64,000 nucleotides of DNA, from assembly GCA_000004695.1 (NCBI GenBank), contig CM000152.2:64001-128000 (forward strand), read 5' to 3'. Positions 2,831-52,176 of this stretch are shown one piece after another. Below the pieces are notes generated by a model, which saw only the letters and a list, made by a program, of their open reading frames with translations, did not search any database and was not told where the DNA came from. The translations under genes and the position numbers were made by a program. Position 1 is the first letter of the stretch, and each line of letters opens with the position of its first letter. Origin of the DNA: Dictyostelium discoideum (lineage: Eukaryota).

Positions 2831-4282
2831 TTAATATTTTTCATATTTAAAGAGATTATTTTCAGCATAATCACTTTTATCTTCAACATCAGTGAAAAAT
2901 TCTTGATCAATAATTAGTGATTCAATTACATTGTTATTGTTTCTACATTCTTGATCTAAAAGTTGAATAAATTTTTCTTTTTTATTATGGAAATCATAAA
3001 TTTGGAAAAGCACTTTATAGTATTTAATTGATTTATTTGATTTAATTAATTCAATTATTGGTTTAATTGAATTGATAGCTTTAATATCAAATTGTTTTAA
3101 ATTTTTAAAACATGAAACGAATTCTAAAATTAAAGGATATTCTTCTAAATTTTTAAAATCTTGATTAAATTGTTTTTGTAATTCATCTTGATCTTCAATT
3201 TGACTTTTATTTTTTTCATTAAAATATTCTTCAATAAAGTTTTTACTTCTTTTCATTTCATTTATAATATCTGAACATCTATCAACAATTGATAAAGATG
3301 TTAAATTTGGTAAACCAACAGAATTAATTAAATTTTTCCAATCAGTTTCAACATTATTTTTTAGTGAGAAAAAGTTGTTATCACATTCACATGGTGCTGA
3401 TTGTTTTGAAGTTTGATTTAATTTCTTCATTAATGAATCAAAACAAAATGTAGCTGTTAATTTTTTTAATTTTGGAGTTAATAATAAAAGTGATAGCAAA
3501 CTTGATATATCAATATTATCAACTTTTAATTCTTCAATATCATTATAAATTGGTAAAAGGTCTTTTCGACTTAAAATTAAATCATTCCAATTGAAATCAC
3601 TTATTGAACCTTGAATTCTTAGTGAATCAATTTTTATAAATTTATCACCATCTTTTAAATTGTTAATTTTATAAAGTTTTGGATCAATTTTATCAACAAT
3701 TAAAACACCAATTTTATTAACATTTTTTGGTAACCTTGAATCTAATTTCAATAGTTTCAAATTCTTTATTTCAATTGACACATTATCATTAATCTTTAAT
3801 CCATTTAAAAATTTCATACTTGAACTTGAGTATCCATTTTTAAATGCTTGTAAATCAATATAAATTGAAGTTAAATTTGTACATTTTGAAATGGCATCAT
3901 TTAAAAAGTTTGAAATTTCAATTTCTTCTTCACTTGAACTGGTTGCATAATTTCTACTTTCAATTTTTAATAATCTAATATTTTCCAATCTATAAATACT
4001 GAAATCACTTCTATCTTGATTTTTTATTGTTGAAATATTACTTTCTGACATTGGATTGGTTGGATAATAATTATCTGGAATAAAATTAAAATCTTGACTG
4101 GTTGTTAAATTATTTGATAAGGTTTTAAAAAACTCCCAATTAACTAATGATAAATTAACAATAGAATTATTATTTTCATTAAGTTCATCTTCATTAAAAA
4201 AAATTTTTCTATTAAAATCAAAACATAAAAATTTTATAATATCTTTAATTAAATATAATGGTAATTCTTTATTTTTATTCAT
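2831..4282 (-). CDS. F-box-like / leucine-rich-repeat protein, ~483 aa (likely start at the MNKNKELPLYLIKDIIKFL Met, plus coordinate 4282)
   Basis: The long minus-strand ORF 2831..4438 extends upstream through a poly-A-derived poly-Phe/Lys run. The first plausible ATG is at 4282. LPLYLIKDIIKFLCFD resembles an F-box N-terminus, followed by repeated L-x-x-L-x-L LRR-like units. Confidence 0.4.
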   Translation of the reverse strand: MNKNKELPLYLIKDIIKFLCFDFNRKIFFNEDELNENNNSIVNLSLVNWEFFKTLSNNLTTSQDFNFIPDNYYPTNPMSESNISTIKNQDRSDFSIYRLENIRLLKIESRNYATSSSEEEIEISNFLNDAISKCTNLTSIYIDLQAFKNGYSSSSMKFLNGLKINDNVSIEIKNLKLLKLDSRLPKNVNKIGVLIVDKIDPKLYKINNLKDGDKFIKIDSLRIQGSISDFNWNDLILSRKDLLPIYNDIEELKVDNIDISSLLSLLLLTPKLKKLTATFCFDSLMKKLNQTSKQSAPCECDNNFFSLKNNVETDWKNLINSVGLPNLTSLSIVDRCSDIINEMKRSKNFIEEYFNEKNKSQIEDQDELQKQFNQDFKNLEEYPLILEFVSCFKNLKQFDIKAINSIKPIIELIKSNKSIKYYKVLFQIYDFHNKKEKFIQLLDQECRNNNNVIESLIIDQEFFTDVEDKSDYAENNLFKYEKY

Positions 4283-4796: not shown

Positions 4797-5429
4797 CTAT
4801 ATTAGTAATGTTATAGTAACTATCATTAATATTAAAAAATTTATATTATAAAATGTCTGTATTTTTATAATCAGTGAAAATGGTAAAGACGGTGATGACG
4901 ATGACGATAAAAGTAATATTGAACCAGTAAAATTAAATATTGAGAGATTACATTGTTTTGTTTTACAGAATGAAGATGGTATTAAAGGTGAGCTACAAAA
5001 AAAGTTTACACATTTAGACTCTTCATTACATTTACTCTTGGCAATACATGAAGACGGATTAATAGAGTAAATATCTGAGCAATTTACTTTATTTCTGTCA
5101 AGACATGAAAAAAATACTACTGCACTTTGTTGACAAAATGCCCCTTGAAATCTCCCTCTAGTAGTACAATATCCTACACCTGATTGTGGATCACACTATT
5201 TTTTTTTAAATTTAAAAAATTATAAATAAAAATACTAAAAGCTCAATTATAATAAATTAACCTTTACCTTACAAAATTCATATTCTAAACAATCTTTTTT
5301 TGAAATACATGCTCTTGGGTAACTAATGGGAAGTGGAGTGCATTTCCCCAATACACTTCCTTTAAATAAAGGTTTACACTAAAATAAAAAATTAACAATA
5401 TTAATAATACTAATATTATTAATAATAAT

Positions 5430-5858: not shown

Positions 5859-6424
5859 ATGGTTACCTTTAATTCATATTTTATACATTTGGCTTTAAAA
5901 CAATATGAATCCAAACCACAACTTAAATCAGAGATGCAACCATAAAATGGTGTTGAACATTTTCTATTAATGCAATCTAATGAATTTAGACAATCGGTGG
6001 CTCTAACACAATCTTCACCAAATTCTGCAAAGAATGCTGGTTGACAAGTTTTGTTTTGGCTTTGCAAAGTGAAAGATAATGTTGAATTAAATGAAACACA
6101 ACTACTGCCTATTTCACAATCACCACTATCTTGACAAATCTCCCCTACTTTCAACGATGGAACACAAATACCATCCTTGCATCTATCATTGGCATAACAT
6201 CTTTGTCCAGTGAATGGTGATGAATTATTACATAACTGACCTAACTCTGAACAAGTATTAATTGAACATGCTAAATCTGATGTTATTGGTATTCGAGAAC
6301 CAACTAAACTTGGTTTTAGTTTAACTTGGCTTTGACAATTTTCAATCTTAATTAAAAAAAAGAGTAATACAATAAAATATTTTAAATAACTTTTAATTCT
6401 ATCTTTATTTTTTTTAAAAATCAT
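5849..6424 (-). CDS. Secreted cysteine-rich (EGF/furin-like spacing) protein, 191 aa, possibly exon 1 of the downstream Cys-rich gene
   Basis: ORF begins with a signal-peptide-like segment (MIFKKNKDRIKSYLKYFIVLLFFLIKIENCQSQ). It is followed by about 24 Cys in C-x-x-x-C / C-x-D-G-x-C patterns. It ends at a stop, but a GTAACC sits at the last codon, so a splice into the downstream exons cannot be excluded. Confidence 0.45.
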
Positions 6425-6946: not shown

Positions 6947-7440
6947 TTAGTATAACAAATTATTTATTATTAACAATATCGCTATTATTAAGTTTATATT
7001 ATAAAATGAAATCGTTAACGATGGGGAAGTTGAAAAAGAATAATAAACTACAGTGAGATTAAATATTGAAAGATTACATTCTTTTGGTTTACAAAATGAG
7101 GATGGTATTAAAGGTGAACTACAAAAAAAGTTTAAACATTTAGCCTCTTCATTACATTTACTCTTGGCAATACATGATGACGGATTAACAGAGTAAATAT
7201 CAGTACAATTGATACGATTTCTAAAAAGACAATCACTAAATACATCTCCACTTTGTTGACAAAAAACTCCTACAAATTTACTTCTAGTCGTACAATATCC
7301 AACACCTGATTGTGAATCGCACTTAAATAAAATAAAATTAGATTGGAACAATATAAGTTTAATCTCTATTATTAATTTTTTTCTTTCTTTACCTTACAAA
7401 ATTCATATTCATTGCAATCATTATTTCCAGTTTTTTTAAT
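6947..7440 (-). CDS. Cysteine-rich protein, paralog B of 4797..5634 (tandem duplicate; possibly degenerate/pseudogene)
   Basis: ORF 6947..7351 (…CDSQSGVGYCTTRSKFVGVFCQQSGDVFSDCLFRNRINCTDIYSVNPSSCIAKSKCNEEAKCLNFFCSSPLIPSSF…) is about 85-90% identical at nucleotide level to 4975-5200 (eyeball estimate). An upstream remnant ...GNNDCNEYEFCK|gtaaag at 7393..7440 is separated by only ~41 nt from the acceptor at 7352, short for a Dictyostelium intron. The region homologous to the paralog-A middle exon is replaced by AT-rich sequence. Confidence 0.35.
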
Positions 7441-19007: not shown

Positions 19008-19317
19008 ATGGTTATGACAATTTCTCCAACGTTTCAATTTTTTTCAAATTATTTTAAAACAGCATGGGATTATTTATCAAATAATAATTATAGTGAATTA
19101 AATAATAATAAAAATAATAATAAAAATAATAATAATAAAAATAATAATTTTAATAATAATAGTAATAATAACAATAATAATAATAATAATAAAGAATTAG
19201 ATGTAAATATGTTTTTTCAAGATCAACAATTTGAAGATATAACTTCAATATTGGATAGTCCAAATGGTATAAATTTATTTTTTGAAGAATTTAAAAAAGA
19301 ACAAGAATTATTAGAAT

Positions 19318-19383
<66 letters not shown>

Positions 19384-19922
19384 TAATAATTGAAGAAGAT
19401 AATATTAAAAATAATTTTATAGATGATAATAAATTAATAACATTAATAAATAATAATCAAGAGATAATTCAAGCCAATCATTATGTATATAGAGCATTAT
19501 CATGGTTATTAAAACATGATTCATACTATGTTATGAATAATGATAATTATGAAATCCATCAATTAATTTTCCATTCAATATCGTGTGTTAAAAATATATT
19601 GGAACTTCATGAAATTCCATCCACTTTCTTACCAATTGTAATTATGTATGCCGATAATTTTGTTAAACGTTGTGGAATCAATAATAAACAATTGTTAAAT
19701 TTATTAATTTCAAGTTCAATAGTTTGTGTAAAATTCTATGGTGAAAGTGTAGCTGTCGATCATAAAGTTTTAGGTGGCTATTTCAATCTTACCAATAAAG
19801 ATCTTTGTTATATGGAAAGATTGTTTTTAAATGGTATCAATTTTCAACTTTATTCAAATAATAGCCAAGTTTTAGAATTTTTAGATTCAATCGAAAAAGA
19901 AAAACAATCTTTTGTTATATAA
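19008..19922 (+). CDS. PHO80-like cyclin domain protein, 304 aa, single exon
   Basis: The C-terminal half (VKFYGESVAVDHKVLGGYFNLTNKDLCYMERLFLNGINFQLY) follows the PHO80/Pcl cyclin pattern KF.DD..Y.N..WAKVGGIS..ELN.LE.EFL.LLDF.L. The N-terminal 130 aa is poly-Asn low complexity. Confidence 0.45.
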
Positions 19923-20074
19923 AAATAATAAAAAGAAAAAAAAAAAAAGAAAATTACCGATTCAATGTACATAAAATTTAACAAATCTCTTATTTATTTA
20001 TTTAATTATAATATAAATTTCAACCTGTAAATAAATCAAAAAAAATAAAATAAAATAAAATAAAATTATACATA

Positions 20075-20116
<42 letters not shown>

Positions 20117-20464
20117 TCATTCCATTTTAATTTTATTTTTATTAACCCATAATTTTGTCACATCTGTTTTAAAATTTAAATAAATCATATAAATATTCAT
20201 TTTTTTTAAAATAAATATTATTATAATTATTTTTAATTTTAATTATATTTTTAACCTTTATTAAATACATATATTTTTTCCATATCAAATAAAATTTTTA
20301 TAAATTAATTAAAACAAAATAATAAAAAAATTATAAAGTAAAAAAAAAAAAAAAAAAAAATTATTGTTTTAATAAATTAATATTTTACAGAATATAAAGG
20401 TATAATAAAAACTATTAAAAGTTGTTTTATTTATATATATTTATTTAATTTTTAATTTTTTTTT

Positions 20465-20632
20465 TTACAAGTCTTCTTTGTCGTATTTTTCATAGAAAGC
20501 AACTCTTTCTCTTTGCTTTTTTTTATCAACGCCATATTTAAAGAAACAACCTGCAATTGAACCTAAAATAAGGGCAACTCCAATATCTTGAACGAGTTGA
20601 GATTTAACAACTTTTGGTAATGCGTGTGTCAT
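20465..20632 (-). CDS. Cytochrome c oxidase subunit VII isoform, 55 aa (one of the oxygen-regulated VIIe/VIIs pair)
   Basis: This small ORF is absent from the ORF track (below its length cut-off). Minus-strand translation is MTHALPKVVKSQLVQDIGVALILGSIAGCFFKYGVDKKKQRERVAFYEKYDKEDL, a single-pass TM protein. It is a paralog of the ORF at 21494..21655, in the same orientation and ~860 bp away. That matches the known tandem cxgE/cxgS arrangement in Dictyostelium, recalled from the literature. Confidence 0.55.
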   Translation of the reverse strand: MTHALPKVVKSQLVQDIGVALILGSIAGCFFKYGVDKKKQRERVAFYEKYDKEDL

Positions 20633-21176
20633 CTTTTTTTTTTTTTTTTTTATATTTATTATTATTATTATTATATTTTATTAAATTAATAATTTGTTTT
20701 AATAATTTTTTTATTTTTTTGTTTTTTTTTTTTTTTATATAAATATAAATGGTAGGTTTAAAATTGATATCTTACATTGTAATGTATTATGTATAGAAAA
20801 AAAAAATAATGGCTATGGATAAATTTTTTTTTTTTTTTTTTTTTTATTATTGAAGAAAAAAAAAAAAAAAATTAAGAAAATTAAATAAAATTAAAAAAAA
20901 ATATTAAACAATGGATGGTGAGTAGATTTTGTTGAAAATTTTGTTCGTTCAATCAATATTCCAATAAATAAATGAAATTTCATTTCCAGAGATCATTTTC
21001 CAAAAAAAAAATAAAAAATAAAAAAATAAAAAAAAATAAAAAAAAAAAAAAAAACAATAACAAAAAAACAATAACAAAAAAAAAAAAAAAAAAAAAAGAT
21101 TTATTTAAACTATTTGCTAGTGTTTAAATTTAAACAGTATTGTATATCCATTTTAAATTATTTGTTTATTTTGCGT

Positions 21177-21215
<39 letters not shown>

Positions 21216-21493
21216 CCTTTCAATTTTCTACCAATTTTTTTTTAACACATCAAAAAAAAAAAAAAAAAAAAAATCAAAAAAAAAATAAAATAATAATAAA
21301 AGTGAAATAGAGAAATTTAAATTAAAATCAAATCGAAAATAATGTTAAAAGGTAGTGTATTTGTTATATTGACATTGTTTTTTTTATTTTATTTTTTTTT
21401 ATATATAAATTTCTTTTAGTTGTTGGTTTTTTTTCTTAATATTATTGAACTTTACAACTTTTATTTTAATTTACTTTATATTAATGTTACTAT

Positions 21494-21655
21494 TTAATTT
21501 CTCTTATCATAGGCAGCGTAAAAATCTTCTCTTTTTTGGATAGATTGGCCAATTTGATATTTGAACCAAACACCTGGGATGATACCTAAAAGGAGACCAT
21601 AACCAATATCTTTGGTGATATGCATTTTAATGAGAGCTGGTAATGCGTGGGACAT
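21494..21655 (-). CDS. Cytochrome c oxidase subunit VII isoform, 53 aa (second member of the tandem pair)
   Basis: Minus-strand translation is MSHALPALIKMHITKDIGYGLLLGIIPGVWFKYQIGQSIQKREDFYAAYDKRN. It shares the M[ST]HALP start, the KDIG motif, a central hydrophobic helix, and the FKY...YxxYDK C-terminus with 20465..20632. Confidence 0.55.
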   Translation of the reverse strand: MSHALPALIKMHITKDIGYGLLLGIIPGVWFKYQIGQSIQKREDFYAAYDKRN

Positions 21656-23205
21656 CTAATTAATTTATTTTGTTTATTTATTTAATGTTATTAGTATTCA
21701 TTTTATATTTTATTTTAGTGATCAATAAAAAATAAAAAAACACTTACTTTATTTATTTTATGTGATTGAAGTGTATGTATGCGAAAAAAAATATGAAAAT
21801 TTTTTACACTATAAAATTTTTAAAAAAAATAAAAAAAAAAAAAATAAAAAAAAATAAAAAAAAAATAAAAAAAAATAAAAAAATTATCAAAAAAAAACAA
21901 AAAAAATTACAAAAATGAATGTATATTCATTTCACTGTTCATAATCCCACTTTTTCACAGAAACTTTAAAAAAAAAAACAATAAAATAAAATAATTTTTT
22001 ATACACAATTAAAAACAAATATATTTAAATAATCATTTTTTATTTTTTATTTTTTTTTATTTATTTTTTATTTTATTATTATTTATTTTTTATTTTATTA
22101 TTATTTATTCATTTTTTTTTTTATTATTTCTCAAATGGGTCCAAGTGTGTTAAGATATTAATATCAAAAAAAAAAAAAAAAAAAAATATATAAATAAAAA
22201 GTATATATTGTAAAAACCATTCAAGTTTGAGCACATACATATTAATTTTATATGGGCTCCCATATAAAAATATTTGAAATTACAAAAAGTGCGCAAATTT
22301 GAATGGTTTTTACAACAAGTATTTGCAACCCAAATTAAGTTAATAAACCAAAAAAAAGAGACTAATTTTAAACATAAAGATTTTAATTTTTTTTTTAATA
22401 TTGAACATTCTTTATTTTTTTTTTTTTTATTTGTCATTTTATTTTTTTTTTTTTTATTATATTTTATTTTATTTTTGAAAATTGAGTTGAAAAAAAATTA
22501 GAAAATAAAAAATACCTTTTTCCAGTTTTCCTAAAATAAGTAATACAAAATTTGCACTGTCGGACTTTACCCCAAAATTATTTTTTTTGATGTTTTATAA
22601 ATTAATTTAAATAATTTTAAATAATAATAATGAACATAAAATTGTAATAATATTTGATATTTCAAACAAAGATGAAATAAAAAATAAATAAAATATAAGA
22701 ATAAATTTAGTTTGATATTAAAATAATTATTGATTAGTGGGAAAAAAAAAAATTAATATATTTCAAGTGAATAAAAAAAAAAAAATTTTAAAAAAAAAAA
22801 ATGAAATAACGAATGGTGGAAAAAAAAAAATAACGAAAAAAATAATGCACTTTGTAAAACTGAAATTTTTCAATTTTTGAAATTTTTTTTTTTTTTATTG
22901 TTTTTTTACGCAGATACCAAACACGTAAGTTATTACATATCATGTATCACTTAGGGTCGCTATGTCACTCTCTCAATCAATTTCTTGGTGATGATTTAGC
23001 TATACTTCAATTTATAATAATAGATTTATTTGGATTCAATTAAAATGTTAAAGATTATATTGGGTTTGATAATGGATTGAAACCTATCACACAGAGAGAA
23101 AATGAGAAAAAGGATAGAGAGTGTACACAGAGATTATAAGTGGGACTCAATCAATCAACCAACTTCAACATCAGCTACTAATTTATAAATTAACCTATAG
23201 ATAAA

Positions 23206-23758
23206 ATGATCTCCAAATTCTCTCTCTTTGTCGAAATCGGACGTGTTGTTGTCATCAACTATGGTGAATACATCAACAAAACTGCCGTCATCATTGATGT
23301 CTTGGATCAAAACAGAGTATGTATTTCACACAATCAATTTGGGTTGTTGGTATGAAATTAAAGAACTAACAAAATTATTTATTATTAATAATTAGGCTTT
23401 AGTTGCTGGTCCACACAGTGGCGTCGAACGTCACATCATTAACTTCAAATGGATCAATCTTACTCCATTAAAAGTTAACATCCAAAGAGGTGCCAGAATT
23501 AACACCCTCATCGCTGCCATCAAAGCTGCTGACCTCGAAACCAAAATTGCTGCCCTCTCTGCCGTTAAGAAAATCAACGCAAGAGCCACCAAATCAAACC
23601 AAACTGATTTCGAACGTTTCAAAGCCAACCTCATCAGACGTAAACTCAACAAGAAAGTTTCAGGTGAAGTTAAGAAATTAGTTAACATTGCCAACAGAGC
23701 TGCTCACAAGAAAGCTGTTGCCCAAAAAGCTGCTGGTCACGTCAAGAAAACTTTATAA
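23206..23758 (+). CDS. rpl14: 60S ribosomal protein L14 (eukaryotic L14e, KOW domain), 157 aa; exons 23206..23316 and 23396..23758
   Basis: Translation is [37 protein letters not shown]|[59 protein letters not shown]..., the RPL14e signature. Codon usage (GCC/ATC/AAC/GTC rich) is typical of highly expressed Dictyostelium genes. Donor AGA|GTATGT, acceptor taattag|, phase 0. Confidence 0.85.
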
Positions 23759-38263: not shown

Positions 38264-44452
<6,189 letters not shown>

Positions 44453-45695: not shown

Positions 45696-48817
<3,122 letters not shown>

Positions 48818-49090
48818 CAATAATAATTTTTAAACCCCATAAAAAAAAAAAAAATGAATAGTTTTAATATTCATATATATATTATTTTATTGTAATTCTA
48901 TTATTTTTATAAAAAAAAAAAAAAAAAAAAGAAATATCGAAAAACATTTAATAAAACCTTATTTATTTATTTATTTATTTAAGAAAATAAACAAAAGAAA
49001 AAGTGTGTAATGATTATTTTTTAATTAAAAAATATTAAAAGTTTATTTGTTTATTTGTTTGTTTGTTTTTTTTTTACACTAAAATTTTAT

Positions 49091-49951
49091 TTATTTATTA
49101 TTTGAAGCTAATCTATCCTTCCATTTACTTTTACGTAATTTAATTGGACGATTACCAATATATTTTCCATTCATTGTATTAAAAGCAGAGATATAATCTG
49201 ATGAACTTGAAAAAGAAACAAAACCAAAACCTCTAGATTTACCAACTTTATCAAAGATAACTTTTGCTTTTAAAAAGGTTGGATATTTTAAAAATGCTTG
49301 TCTTAACATTTCTTCGGTGACATCATTACCAAGATCACCAACGAATATACGAAAATCATTTGGATCCCATTCAGCTAAAGTATGATCAGTCCATTTTTCA
49401 CCAGCAGCTTCCATAACTATATTTGTGTTTTTTTTTGGTTCTTCCATTGTAACTTGAGGTCTAAGTGCTGCAATTGATAAATTTGTTGCTGTGGTGGTTG
49501 GATAATTAACTGAAACTTTTGGTTTGTCATTAGCTAATAAATTGATTGTATTTGCTGAATATGTAACTGCTTTTGAAGATACTACAGCTTTACTTGGTGT
49601 ATTACTATTTATTGAAGTTTTTGATACCATTTGTTTCTTTTTCATTAATGAAGGAGGTATCATTGGTTTAACACCAACATTTGTTGATGTTGTATTTGAG
49701 GTAGTAGTAGTAGTAGTAGTTGTAGTTGTTGTAGTTGGTGTAGTAGTAGTGGTTGGTGTATCATCTAATTTTCTTTTTATACCTGCTGTATTTGCACTAC
49801 TAGTAGTGGCTGGTGAAGGTGCTGTACCACCACTATTAGAATTCGAATTTGAGTTAGTCTGTGTTATAATGTTATTAGTATTTTTTGAAGAATCACCCAC
49901 ATTTTCGATTTCTTTAAAAAAGTCATCTATTTCATCATTTTCAGTCGACAT
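49091..49951 (-). CDS. RBM42-like RNA-binding protein (C-terminal RRM), 286 aa, single exon
   Basis: The C-terminus WDPNDFRIFVGDLGNDVTEEMLRQAFLKYPTFLKAKVIFDKVGKSRGFGFVSFSSSSDYISAFNTMNGKYIGNRPIKLRKSKWKDR matches the RBM42 RRM (EWDPNDFRIFCGDLGNEVNDDIL..F..FPSFLKAKVIRDKRTGKTKGYGFVSFKDPSDYVRAMREMNGKYVGSRPIKLRKSMWKDR) almost position for position. The N-terminal region is a Thr/Ser/Asn-rich linker. Confidence 0.75.
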   Translation of the reverse strand: MSTENDEIDDFFKEIENVGDSSKNTNNIITQTNSNSNSNSGGTAPSPATTSSANTAGIKRKLDDTPTTTTTPTTTTTTTTTTTTSNTTSTNVGVKPMIPPSLMKKKQMVSKTSINSNTPSKAVVSSKAVTYSANTINLLANDKPKVSVNYPTTTATNLSIAALRPQVTMEEPKKNTNIVMEAAGEKWTDHTLAEWDPNDFRIFVGDLGNDVTEEMLRQAFLKYPTFLKAKVIFDKVGKSRGFGFVSFSSSSDYISAFNTMNGKYIGNRPIKLRKSKWKDRLASNNK

Positions 49952-50290
49952 CTTTATTTATATGTATTTAAAAGAAAATGAAAAAAAAAAAAAATTAAAA
50001 AATTAAAAAAAAAAAAAAAAAAAAAATCGTATGGTTGTGTTAGAAAAAAAAAAAAAAACTAAAAATAAAAAATGAAAAAATAAAAATAAAAATAAAATAA
50101 TTTAATGAGAACTAAAAATAAAATGATATTATAAATATGAATATACAAACTATATACCATTTAAACGTTTATTAATTATTAATTATTTCCATTATGATAT
50201 TGATTATTGCTAATTATTATTATTATTATTTATTATTTTTTTTTAATAATATTGTACCATTATCTCTTTTTTTTTTTATTTTTTTTTTAT

Positions 50291-52176
50291 TTATTTTGAA
50301 TCTTTTAAATTTTGATCATTTAAATTTGTAAATGAAGAACTTGTACCAGATAATCTTTTTGTTTTTGATTCTTGAGCCAATTTAACTCTTCTTTCACGTA
50401 AAGACATTTTACCAGATTTCATATCACCAAGTGAATTTGATAATTCTTCAGAGGAATTACCACCATTACTACCGGATAAACTATTGTTACTACCATGGGA
50501 GGCATGATTTTCATTACCACCTATTGATTCAACATCCTTGGTATTGTATTGACCAGAGGAACGAGTGAATTTCTCTTCAATTTTTTGTTTAGTTTGTTCA
50601 GCTTTTTCAACGACATGACTCATTTGTCTATCGTTATGATCACTTAGGGTCTTTTGATATTCTACTTTTTCAATGTTAATTGCTTTAATCCATTCGGAGA
50701 GAGTATCTTTATCGGGGGCAGTAATCATCATAGAGAATGATTTTTCTTTTAGAATTTGAAGATTTAATGAACCTTCAAACTCTTTTAGCACCAATTGATG
50801 AAGGAAAATGATTTGTTCGAATTGAAGACGAATTGTTTTTTGTTTACCAAAGAAAGAGGAACCACTTGATTTATTTGGACGAGTGATTGCCAAACTATCA
50901 TTAAAGAGATAGAGTACGATTAAACTTTTCTTTCCCTTTGGTAGTACCTCATGAAATTCACCTTCCTTAATGAAACGTCTATGAGATTTAGCGAGTTGTT
51001 GAGTTTGATCACCATCTAATTTCTCTTGAATCTCTGCCAACTTCATGATACTTTCAGCCTCCTTTCTCATTTCATTCATATTCTCTGCGACACTATTAAT
51101 CTTTTCAAAGGCGATTTTCAATTGTTCATAGTCTGGATGTGTTGGCCAAGTATGACCAATCATATCTTTGATCAATAATGAGTATCTTGGAATACGTTGA
51201 ATGGGTCTAATTAAGTAATCCTCCAAACCACGTAACTTGATCTCTTCGTTTGATTCCTTAACTTTGTTCAAATAGGATTTGAATTTGGTTTGTTTCTTAC
51301 ATTCATTTAGTACACCCATCGCTTCGCTATAACTTCTACTATATTGAGAGTAGATCTTTAGGAAATTGGAAAACTTTATAAAGATATCACCAATCAATGT
51401 ATCCACTTTCCAGTCTTTAGTTCTACCCTCTAAATCGATCAATAAACGTTTATTGTATGACAAGATAATTGATACTTCACTAAAAATAGATTGAACTTCC
51501 TCTTGTGAAATAATTGGTGATCCCTTTTCAATGGCTTCTCTAAGATCCTTTAAAATATGATCATGAAGAAATGCTAAACGATTAATATATTCAACTTCTG
51601 TTTTCATAATCTCTTGTACAATTCTTTCTCTATAAGCTGAATCACGTGCTTGAATTTTCTTTCTATTTCTTTCAATCCATGCTCTTGTTGCTCTTTGAAT
51701 TCTAATTGCTGCTCTTTCTTCTAATGATAATTTTGTTGTTGTTTTAGTTGTTGTTGTTGTTGTTGTTGTTGGTGTTGGTGTTGTTACATTTGTTGTTGGT
51801 GTTGGTTGTTGTACAGTAGTTGTTGGTGTTGGTGTTGGTGTTGGTGTTGATGTTGATGTTGATGTTGATGTTGCATTTACGGAACTGGTGGAGGTAGTAG
51901 TAGTTGTTGTTGTTGTAGTTGTTGTTGATGGTGTTACAGTTGCAGTTGAAACTACAGTTGATTTAGTTGGTGAAGCAGTATCAGAAGATTTAACAACTGG
52001 TGAAGTTGCTGGTGAATTATTTAATGATACTTGATCTGGTGCTGAAGTACCCTTTACATAACCAGTAATAATTGGTGATGCTGGTTGTGATAAACTATTT
52101 CTATCAGATTTTGGTGACTATTTAATTATAATAAAAAAATAAAATAAAATATTAAAGCATAGTTAGTAAAGGCATT

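What the first reader, a model, noticed from the sequence alone, without database searches (positions are those of the whole stretch)
20465..21655. Tandem ~55-aa paralogs invisible to the ORF track: likely the oxygen-switched cytochrome c oxidase subunit VII isoform pair
Two same-strand mini-genes sit 861 bp apart: MTHALPKVVKSQLVQDIGVALILGSIAGCFFKYGVDKKKQRERVAFYEKYDKEDL and MSHALPALIKMHITKDIGYGLLLGIIPGVWFKYQIGQSIQKREDFYAAYDKRN. In Dictyostelium the subunit VIIe and VIIs isoforms are encoded by adjacent genes whose expression switches with oxygen tension. The intergenic 20633..21493 should then hold the oxygen-responsive promoter of the downstream copy. A perfect 16-bp palindrome AAATGAAATTTCATTT lies there at ~20973-20988. 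Any ORF caller with a 60-aa floor will miss both genes.
Basis: partly seen in the sequence, partly recalled or inferred. Interest (0 to 1): 0.55.

Follow-up and report, generated by a model that had tools for sequence, protein, structure and literature searches.

The report
Known oxygen-switched cytochrome oxidase gene pair

Summary
Both ORFs exist exactly as described, on the minus strand. 21494..21655 encodes a peptide identical to D. discoideum CxgE (COX VIIe, P20609). 20465..20632 encodes one identical to CxgS (COX VIIs, P20610). They are 44% identical and 861 bp apart, with cxgE upstream and the hypoxia-induced cxgS downstream. Published RT-qPCR primers for both genes map onto these ORFs, and three recent papers show cxgS induced and cxgE repressed in hypoxia.

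Refinements:
- By sequence the proteins belong to the Cox9/COX6C family, not to mammalian COX7A/B/C.
- The palindrome lies at 20970..20985, 3 nt from the stated position. Perfect 16-nt palindromes are common in this AT-rich window.
- Its core, GAAATTTCATT, occurs once in each of the D. discoideum, D. firmibasis and D. purpureum loci. Each time it lies 345-417 nt upstream of the cxgS start codon. It is therefore a credible but untested cis-element.
- The tandem arrangement, the synteny and a probable 5'UTR intron are conserved in all three species.
- The small genes are indeed missed or mis-modelled in the other two genome annotations.

The parts
21494..21655 (-). cxgE coding sequence (COX subunit VIIe, normoxic isoform), 53 aa, single coding exon
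   Evidence: ORF; exact identity to P20609/XP_642042; cxgE qPCR primers map to 21637..21655 and 21508..21531
20465..20632 (-). cxgS coding sequence (COX subunit VIIs, hypoxia-induced isoform), 55 aa, single coding exon
   Evidence: ORF; exact identity to P20610/XP_642041; cxgS qPCR primers map to 20594..20613 and 20522..20541; Pfam COX6C 30.6 bits, above the cut-off of 22
20633..21493 (-). 861-bp cxgE-cxgS spacer (12.5% G+C): cxgE 3' end, cxgS promoter and probable cxgS 5'UTR
   Evidence: Coordinates; composition; the equivalent spacers are 837 bp in D. firmibasis and 760 bp in D. purpureum
20970..20985 (.). Perfect 16-nt palindrome AAATGAAATTTCATTT, 338-353 nt upstream of the cxgS ATG
   Evidence: The core GAAATTTCATT is unique in each of the three loci and always lies in the spacer. 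Symmetry is 16 nt in D. discoideum, 12 nt in D. purpureum and 8 nt in D. firmibasis.
20933..20981 (-). Longest non-low-complexity block of the spacer conserved with D. firmibasis (GAAATTTCATTTATTTATT ... ATTGATTGA ... AACAAAATTTTCA)
   Evidence: Exact-match analysis; alignments
20633..20775 (-). Putative 143-nt 5'UTR intron of cxgS (donor GTAAGA at 20775..20770, acceptor AG at 20634..20633). Inferred, with no transcript data.
   Evidence: It is the only donor-like site within 220 nt of the ATG. The block AATGTAAGATAT is conserved in D. firmibasis, and an equivalent donor and AG are present in D. purpureum.
21656..21747 (-). Putative 92-nt 5'UTR intron of cxgE (donor GTAAGT at 21747..21742, acceptor AG at 21657..21656). 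Inferred.
   Evidence: equivalent single donor-like sites and an AG before the ATG occur in D. firmibasis and D. purpureum
21758..21784 (-). 27-nt block TCGCATACATACACTTCAATCACATAA, invariant between D. discoideum and D. firmibasis, following a T-run. Probably the cxgE transcription start and non-coding exon 1 (inferred).
   Evidence: Invariant columns T17-A43 of alignment A1; sequence
21913..21932 (.). Inverted repeat AAATGAAT-gtat-ATTCATTT about 260 nt upstream of the cxgE ATG, with the same half-site as the cxgS palindrome
   Evidence: 3 such pairs in the window against 0.49 expected. Not found in D. firmibasis, so its significance is doubtful.

Best explanation
The window is Dictyostelium discoideum nuclear DNA, and the feature is the known cxgE-cxgS locus. 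It consists of two tandem, head-to-tail paralogous genes on the minus strand. They encode interchangeable isoforms of the smallest nuclear-encoded cytochrome c oxidase subunit, a single-pass membrane peptide of about 55 aa in the Cox9/COX6C family. In air, cxgE (upstream, 21655..21494) is expressed and its product is built into the enzyme. As oxygen falls, transcription of cxgS (downstream, 20632..20465) is induced from the 861-bp spacer and cxgE mRNA declines, so the oxidase exchanges this subunit. [quoted passage not shown] Shown here: gene identity, arrangement, family, and conservation of the tandem pair and of a short palindromic core upstream of cxgS. Taken from the literature: the oxygen-dependent expression and its functional consequence. 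Inferred: the 5'UTR introns, the approximate transcription starts, and any regulatory role for the conserved GAAATTTCATT element.
For: Exact identity of both peptides to P20609 and P20610, with consecutive accessions on one 6,357,299-bp contig. Paralogy at 44% identity, E = 9e-17. Published cxgE and cxgS qPCR primers map uniquely onto the ORFs in the expected orientation. Hypoxia data from papers: cxgS x3.1 and cxgE x0.10 after 3 h at 0.4% O2 (PMC10307954). Linear cxgS induction within 1 h at 1% O2, half-maximal at about 6% O2, blocked by antimycin A; cxgE repressed at 5 and 24 h (PMC12750705). 50-100-fold cxgS induction during starvation at 1-2% O2 (PMC12581325). Family: Pfam COX6C hit above the gathering score for CxgS. 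Every PDB sequence hit is Cox9 or COX6C, the best being S. pombe Cox9 at E = 1.8e-5. The same rpl14 / cxgE / cxgS / cyclin-like order is found in D. firmibasis and D. purpureum.
Against: Nothing contradicts the identification. Limits: CxgE alone does not reach any Pfam threshold, so its family membership rests on its homology to CxgS and on a profile hit to Cox9. The original promoter study (Bisson et al. 1997, EMBO J 16:739) is not in the held library. I therefore could not check which parts of the spacer were functionally mapped. No expression data can be generated with these tools.
Confidence: 0.97

Rival explanations
1. Sub-hypothesis from the first reader: the 16-bp palindrome at 20970..20985 is the oxygen-responsive cis-element of cxgS, bound by a dimeric transcription factor that switches the gene on in hypoxia.
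For: The core GAAATTTCATT occurs exactly once in each of the 64-kb window, the 12-kb D. firmibasis locus and the 10-kb D. purpureum locus. Each time it lies in the cxgE-cxgS spacer, at 349, 417 and about 345 nt upstream of the cxgS ATG. The chance of the 8-mer GAAATTTC appearing in one such spacer is about 0.04. ATGAAATTTCATT is identical between D. discoideum and D. purpureum even though the proteins are only 35-49% identical. It sits in the longest conserved complex block of the spacer. That is about 195-210 nt upstream of the putative exon-1 donor, a plausible upstream-element position. No hypoxia-responsive factor or motif is described in the 2025 transcriptome paper.
Against: The full 16-nt symmetry is not conserved: it is 12 nt in D. 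purpureum and 8 nt in D. firmibasis. Perfect 16-nt palindromes are frequent in this genome. Conservation shows constraint, not oxygen responsiveness; the block could serve growth-phase or developmental control, since cxgS is also repressed on starvation. Only three related species were compared. The 1997 promoter analysis could not be read.
Confidence: 0.2
2. The palindrome is a by-product of AT-rich, low-complexity intergenic DNA and has no function.
For: There are 18 perfect 16-nt palindromes in the window, including a second one in the same spacer (21121..21136) that is not conserved in D. firmibasis. The exact 16-mer with up to 2 mismatches occurs at chance frequency. The outer 2-4 positions of each arm vary between species.
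Against: The 11-nt core is retained at a similar position in three species while most of the surrounding spacer is unalignable homopolymer.
Confidence: 0.3
3. The conserved block around the palindrome encodes a micro-peptide or a small RNA rather than a promoter element.
For: In D. discoideum the block reads as a 30-aa ORF, 20891..20983 (-), starting at the ATG inside the palindrome. The D. discoideum / D. firmibasis length difference in the block is 9 nt, a multiple of three.
Against: D. firmibasis has TCG in place of the ATG, and D. purpureum reaches a stop after four codons. There is no Rfam match at E <= 1 in 20000..22500.
Confidence: 0.02
4. The peptides belong to one of the COX7 families (COX7A, COX7B or COX7C), as the name 'subunit VII' suggests.
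For: Only the historical name, which follows gel-band order in Dictyostelium.
Against: Pfam reports only COX6C for CxgS and nothing for COX7A/B/C at E <= 10. All PDB hits are Cox9 or COX6C.
Confidence: 0.02

Closest known systems
Dictyostelium discoideum cxgE / cxgS (COX subunits VIIe / VIIs; Bisson, Sandona and co-workers, EMBO J 1997 16:739)
   Same: Identical: the protein sequences match P20609 and P20610 exactly. The genes are in tandem with a spacer of about 0.86 kb. The hypoxia switch has been documented with primers that map to these ORFs.
   Different: Nothing differs; this is that locus.
Yeast Cox9 (subunit VIIa) / mammalian COX6C, Pfam PF02937
   Same: The same protein family by sequence: a peptide of about 55-75 aa with one transmembrane helix followed by a basic stretch and an R-E-x-F-Y motif. 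S. pombe Cox9 E = 1.8e-5; Pfam 30.6 bits.
   Different: To my knowledge, Cox9 and COX6C are not known to exist as oxygen-switched isoform pairs in yeast or mammals. The Dictyostelium proteins are at the short end of the family, and CxgE is too divergent to pass Pfam alone.
Saccharomyces cerevisiae COX5a / COX5b and mammalian COX4I1 / COX4I2 oxygen-regulated isoform pairs (from general knowledge)
   Same: The same logic: a nuclear-encoded accessory COX subunit exists as an aerobic and a hypoxic isoform, exchanged through transcriptional control to tune enzyme kinetics at low O2.
   Different: A different subunit family (Cox5/COX4, not Cox9/COX6C). The genes are unlinked rather than in tandem. 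Their regulators are known (Hap1/Hap2-5 and Rox1 in yeast, HIF-1 and LON in mammals), whereas Dictyostelium lacks HIF and its regulator is unidentified.

Membership tests
D. discoideum cxgE/cxgS locus | Protein sequences identical to COX VIIe (P20609) and VIIs (P20610) | tested here: met
   Exact full-length look-up
D. discoideum cxgE/cxgS locus | Two genes adjacent, on the same strand, head-to-tail, with a spacer of about 0.8 kb | tested here: met
   Both on the minus strand, 861 bp apart; consecutive accessions. The reported spacer of about 800 bp is from my memory of the Bisson 1997 abstract.
D. discoideum cxgE/cxgS locus | Reciprocal oxygen-dependent transcription (VIIs up and VIIe down in hypoxia) | not testable with these tools
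   Literature only: PMC10307954, PMC12750705, PMC12581325. Their primers map to these ORFs.
Cox9 / COX6C (Pfam PF02937) | Score above the Pfam gathering threshold | tested here: met
   CxgS scores 30.6 bits against a cut-off of 22, E = 3.7e-7. CxgE alone gives no hit, and the D. purpureum S-type scores 17.2 bits, below the cut-off. CxgE is tied to the family by 44% identity to CxgS and by the profile hit to Cox9.
Cox9 / COX6C (Pfam PF02937) | Sequence similarity to subunits seen in solved complex IV structures | tested here: met
   All 13-15 PDB hits are Cox9 or COX6C chains. S. pombe 8c8q_I E = 1.8e-5; the profile search gives S. cerevisiae Cox9 at E = 0.016-0.019.
Cox9 / COX6C (Pfam PF02937) | Short peptide with a single central hydrophobic helix | tested here: met
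   53 and 55 aa. The maximum 17-residue Kyte-Doolittle windows start at residues 17 (CxgE) and 13 (CxgS), with means of 1.25 and 1.79. This is only a crude hydropathy test.
Cox9 / COX6C (Pfam PF02937) | Occupies the Cox9/COX6C position in assembled complex IV | not testable with these tools
   No Dictyostelium complex IV chain appeared among the PDB sequence hits
COX7A / COX7B / COX7C | Match to the corresponding Pfam families or PDB chains | tested here: not met
   No such hit at E <= 10 in Pfam or in the PDB

The most novel reading that the evidence does not exclude
It would then give a handle for finding that factor and its regulon.
Probability: 0.12. Interest if true: 0.45.

Novelty: already known. 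Interest (0 to 1): 0.1.

Why it matters
As a discovery it does not matter: the locus, its proteins and the oxygen switch were described in the 1990s and are used today as routine hypoxia markers. Three points have residual value.

1. It is a clean positive control showing that the first-stage reader can recognise real sub-60-aa genes from raw sequence.
2. It illustrates how such genes are lost or mangled in annotation. cxgE is unannotated in D. purpureum, cxgS is over-extended to 118 aa in D. firmibasis, and CxgS is buried in an unrelated database cluster.
3. Phylogenetic footprinting singles out one short element upstream of cxgS as a testable candidate for the unknown Dictyostelium hypoxia response element.

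Tried and rejected
- The key paper (Bisson 1997, PMC1169675 / doi 10.1093/emboj/16.4.739) is not in the held library. Full-text searches for VIIe/VIIs, 'adjacent genes' and similar terms gave no description of the promoter dissection.
- The search for homologous proteins with CxgS found nothing. In that database CxgS is clustered under an unrelated Phytophthora retroelement representative. With CxgE it found only the D. firmibasis orthologue.
- The look-up of encoding contigs has no record for CxgS itself.
- MAFFT alignments of the spacers mis-gapped the palindrome region because of the homopolymer runs. An unfiltered blastn produced only low-complexity noise. Exact matches filtered for at least 2 G/C were used instead.
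- A micro-ORF reading of the conserved block was rejected: there is no ATG in D. firmibasis and an early stop in D. purpureum.
- A small-RNA reading was rejected: no Rfam hit.
- No tRNA genes were found in the window.
- The second 16-nt palindrome (21121..21136) and the cxgE-upstream inverted repeat (21913..21932) are not conserved in D. firmibasis, so I do not count them as parts of a mechanism.
- Heat-shock-element-like (nGAAnnTTCn) and STAT-like (TTGA repeats) readings of the conserved block rest only on consensus sequences recalled from memory and were not pursued.
- P0010 in the whole-library search is a repetitive false positive.

Full report
**Observation.** The region was read directly and its ORFs listed. 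The gap between them, 20633..21493, is 861 bp. Because both genes are on the minus strand, the 53-aa gene is upstream and the 55-aa gene is downstream in the direction of transcription. The peptides are 44% identical over their full length, E = 9e-17. The window is 15-25% G+C with long homopolymer runs and poly-Asn ORFs. These are typical Dictyostelium features.

**Identity.** An exact-sequence look-up in the 15-billion-protein collection gave two results.
- The 53-aa peptide is D. discoideum AX4 'cytochrome c oxidase subunit VIIe' (P20609, XP_642042, EAL68091).
- The 55-aa peptide is 'subunit VIIs' (P20610, XP_642041, EAL68092).

The accessions are consecutive and both lie on one contig of 6,357,299 bp.

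**Transcripts and oxygen regulation (from the literature).** Three recent papers use cxgS and cxgE as hypoxia markers and print their qPCR primers.
- All four primers map uniquely onto the two ORFs in the correct orientation. cxgE-F and cxgE-R fall at 21637..21655 and 21508..21531. cxgS-F and cxgS-R fall at 20594..20613 and 20522..20541.
- After 3 h at 0.4% O2, cxgS was x3.14 and cxgE x0.10 (PMC10307954).
- At 1% O2, cxgS rose linearly within 1 h. [quoted passage not shown]
- During starvation at 1-2% O2, cxgS was induced 50-100-fold (PMC12581325).
- These papers credit Bisson et al. 1997 (EMBO J 16:739) for the switch. They say it raises the enzyme's O2 affinity about threefold.

That paper is not in the held library. 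My recollection is that it reported the two genes as adjacent, linked tail-to-head by about 800 bp. That rests on memory only, but it agrees with what the sequence shows.

**Family.** 'Subunit VII' is a Dictyostelium gel-band name.
- In Pfam, CxgS matches COX6C (PF02937) at 30.6 bits, above the gathering score of 22. Nothing from COX7A/B/C appears even at E <= 10.
- Against the PDB, every hit is a Cox9 or COX6C chain. The best is S. pombe Cox9 (8c8q_I, E = 1.8e-5), aligned over residues 8-51.
- A three-sequence profile dominated by E-type sequences also hits only Cox9 and COX6C.
- CxgE alone passes no Pfam threshold. Its membership is by homology to CxgS and by the profile hit.
- Both peptides have one central hydrophobic stretch.

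The pair is therefore an oxygen-switched Cox9/COX6C duplicate. It is functionally analogous to the yeast Cox5a/5b and mammalian COX4-1/4-2 isoform pairs (general knowledge) but lies in a different subunit family.

**Comparative genomics.** A whole-library HMM search of 1.84 billion representatives found only four true relatives:
- D. firmibasis CxgE.
- A 118-aa D. firmibasis 'hypothetical protein' whose first 54 residues are CxgS.
- A 60-aa Synstelium polycarpum protein.
- A 54-aa D. purpureum 'hypothetical protein'.

In the D. firmibasis locus L001, cxgE is at 6001..6162 and an intact 55-aa cxgS ORF is at 7000..7167, with an 837-bp spacer. The annotated 118-aa product is an over-extended gene model.

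In the D. purpureum locus L002, the annotated 54-aa S-type gene is at 5001..5165. It is preceded by an unannotated E-type gene with a phase-0 intron. Exon 1 is 4011..4103, the intron runs from GTAATA to TTTTAG, and exon 2 is 4181..4240. The spliced product is MHPLPQIIKVQIAKDIGYGLVLGLIPGLYFK|EVYVTRIHREREAFYSQNN.

The gene order rpl14 (opposite strand) / cxgE / cxgS / cyclin-like gene (opposite strand) is the same in all three species. The tandem pair is thus conserved across these three Dictyostelium species.

**The palindrome.** AAATGAAATTTCATTT is a perfect 16-nt palindrome at 20970..20985, 3 nt from the position given. Taken alone it is unremarkable.
- The window has 18 perfect 16-nt palindromes, against 10 +/- 3 in Markov simulations.
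- Five of them have at least 2 G/C, against 4.1 expected.
- A second one in the same spacer (21121..21136) is not conserved.

Footprinting gives a different picture. I filtered exact matches between the D. discoideum and D. firmibasis spacers for at least 2 G/C. This leaves a few colinear islands.
- The longest, away from the cxgE 3' end, is GAAATTTCATTTATTTATT.
- It is followed by ATTGATTGA and AACAAAATTTTCA, together spanning 20981..20933.

The 11-mer GAAATTTCATT occurs exactly once in each of the 64-kb window, the 12-kb L001 and the 10-kb L002. Each occurrence is in the cxgE-cxgS spacer, at 349, 417 and about 345 nt upstream of the cxgS ATG. The simulated chance of even the 8-mer core appearing in one spacer is about 0.04. 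ATGAAATTTCATT is identical in D. purpureum, whose proteins are only 35-49% identical to their D. discoideum counterparts.

The symmetry itself shrinks from 16 nt in D. discoideum to 12 nt in D. purpureum and 8 nt in D. firmibasis. The block is not a conserved micro-ORF, since D. firmibasis lacks the ATG and D. purpureum stops after four codons. It also matches no Rfam family. I conclude that it is a plausible cis-element of cxgS. Whether it mediates the oxygen response is untested. The 2025 transcriptome paper names no responsible factor or motif.

**Gene structure (inferred).** In all six genes (E and S in three species) there is exactly one splice-donor-like site within 220 nt upstream of the ATG. 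It lies 76-189 nt from the ATG, and an AG sits 0-1 nt before the ATG.
- In D. discoideum these sites are GTAAGT at 21747..21742 for cxgE and GTAAGA at 20775..20770 for cxgS.
- Each is preceded by a block conserved in D. firmibasis that follows a T-run.
- This suggests short non-coding first exons and 5'UTR introns of 92 and 143 nt.
- It would place the palindrome about 150-200 nt upstream of the cxgS transcription start.
- No transcript data were available to confirm any of this.

**Evolution of the pair.** E-type and S-type signatures (DIGYGL..IPG versus DIGV...AGC) are recognisable in D. purpureum. However, the two D. purpureum paralogs are more alike (54%) than either is to its D. discoideum counterpart (49% and 41%). 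Each species' pair also shares its own N-terminus: M[ST]HALP in D. discoideum and MHPLPQ in D. purpureum. This points to partial gene conversion between the tandem copies, or less likely to independent duplications. The sequences are too short to decide.

**Verdict.** The feature is the textbook D. discoideum cxgE/cxgS oxygen-switch locus and is already known. The only open, mildly interesting lead is the conserved palindromic core upstream of cxgS as a candidate hypoxia-response element.

Noticed in passing
L002 4011..4103 + 4181..4240 (D. purpureum GL871001.1): An unannotated E-type COX VII gene with a phase-0 intron lies about 760 bp upstream of the annotated 54-aa S-type gene (XP_003286126, 'hypothetical protein'). 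Neither is named as a COX subunit in that genome.
   Followed up: yes
L001 7000..8080 (D. firmibasis CM069765.1): cxgS is an intact 55-aa ORF at 7000..7167 but is annotated as a 118-aa multi-exon product (KAK5583115). That model splices past the stop codon into acidic low-complexity sequence.
   Followed up: yes
protein collection, cluster of P0001 (CxgS): CxgS sits in a '90% identity' cluster whose representative and other members are unrelated Phytophthora fragariaefolia retroelement-like proteins. This hides CxgS from the word-indexed homology search.
   Followed up: partly
window 20615..20632 and 21638..21655; L002 4011..4028 and 5001..5018: Within each species the two paralogs share a species-specific N-terminus: M[ST]HALP in D. 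discoideum and MHPLPQ in D. purpureum, where the first 18 nt are identical. The D. purpureum pair is 54% identical, more than either is to its D. discoideum counterpart. This suggests gene conversion between the tandem copies.
   Followed up: partly
window 20633..20775 and 21656..21747 (minus strand): Probable 5'UTR introns ending immediately before the ATG in both genes. Single donor-like sites and an AG before the ATG are conserved in all six genes of the three species.
   Followed up: partly
window 21913..21932: The inverted repeat AAATGAAT-gtat-ATTCATTT lies about 260 nt upstream of the cxgE ATG and uses the same half-site as the cxgS palindrome. There are 3 such pairs in the window against 0.49 expected. 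It is absent from D. firmibasis. D. purpureum instead has a (TTCATT)n microsatellite at L002 ~3905..3965, upstream of its cxgE.
   Followed up: partly
window 21121..21136: A second perfect 16-nt palindrome, TGTTTAAATTTAAACA, lies in the same spacer. It is not conserved in D. firmibasis.
   Followed up: yes
window 20947..20957 (minus strand); L001 6616..6624: The conserved block next to the palindrome contains ATTGATTGA, i.e. tandem TTGA. From memory, this resembles Dd-STAT target repeats. The palindrome core also fits nGAAnnTTCn, a heat-shock-element dyad. Both are resemblances only.
   Followed up: no
window 19008..19922 (+) and 23206..23355 (+): Flanking genes: a 304-aa poly-Asn ORF with a weak Cyclin_N match (E = 0.05), and the first exon of a ribosomal protein L14e-like gene (weak KOW match). 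The corresponding gene in D. firmibasis carries a Ribosomal_L14e hit. Synteny is conserved in D. firmibasis and D. purpureum.
   Followed up: partly
window 40001..44000 and 48001..52000: These stretches are markedly richer in G+C (0.35 and 0.30, against about 0.2 elsewhere). The first has strong positive GC skew. They are presumably long coding exons and were not examined.
   Followed up: no
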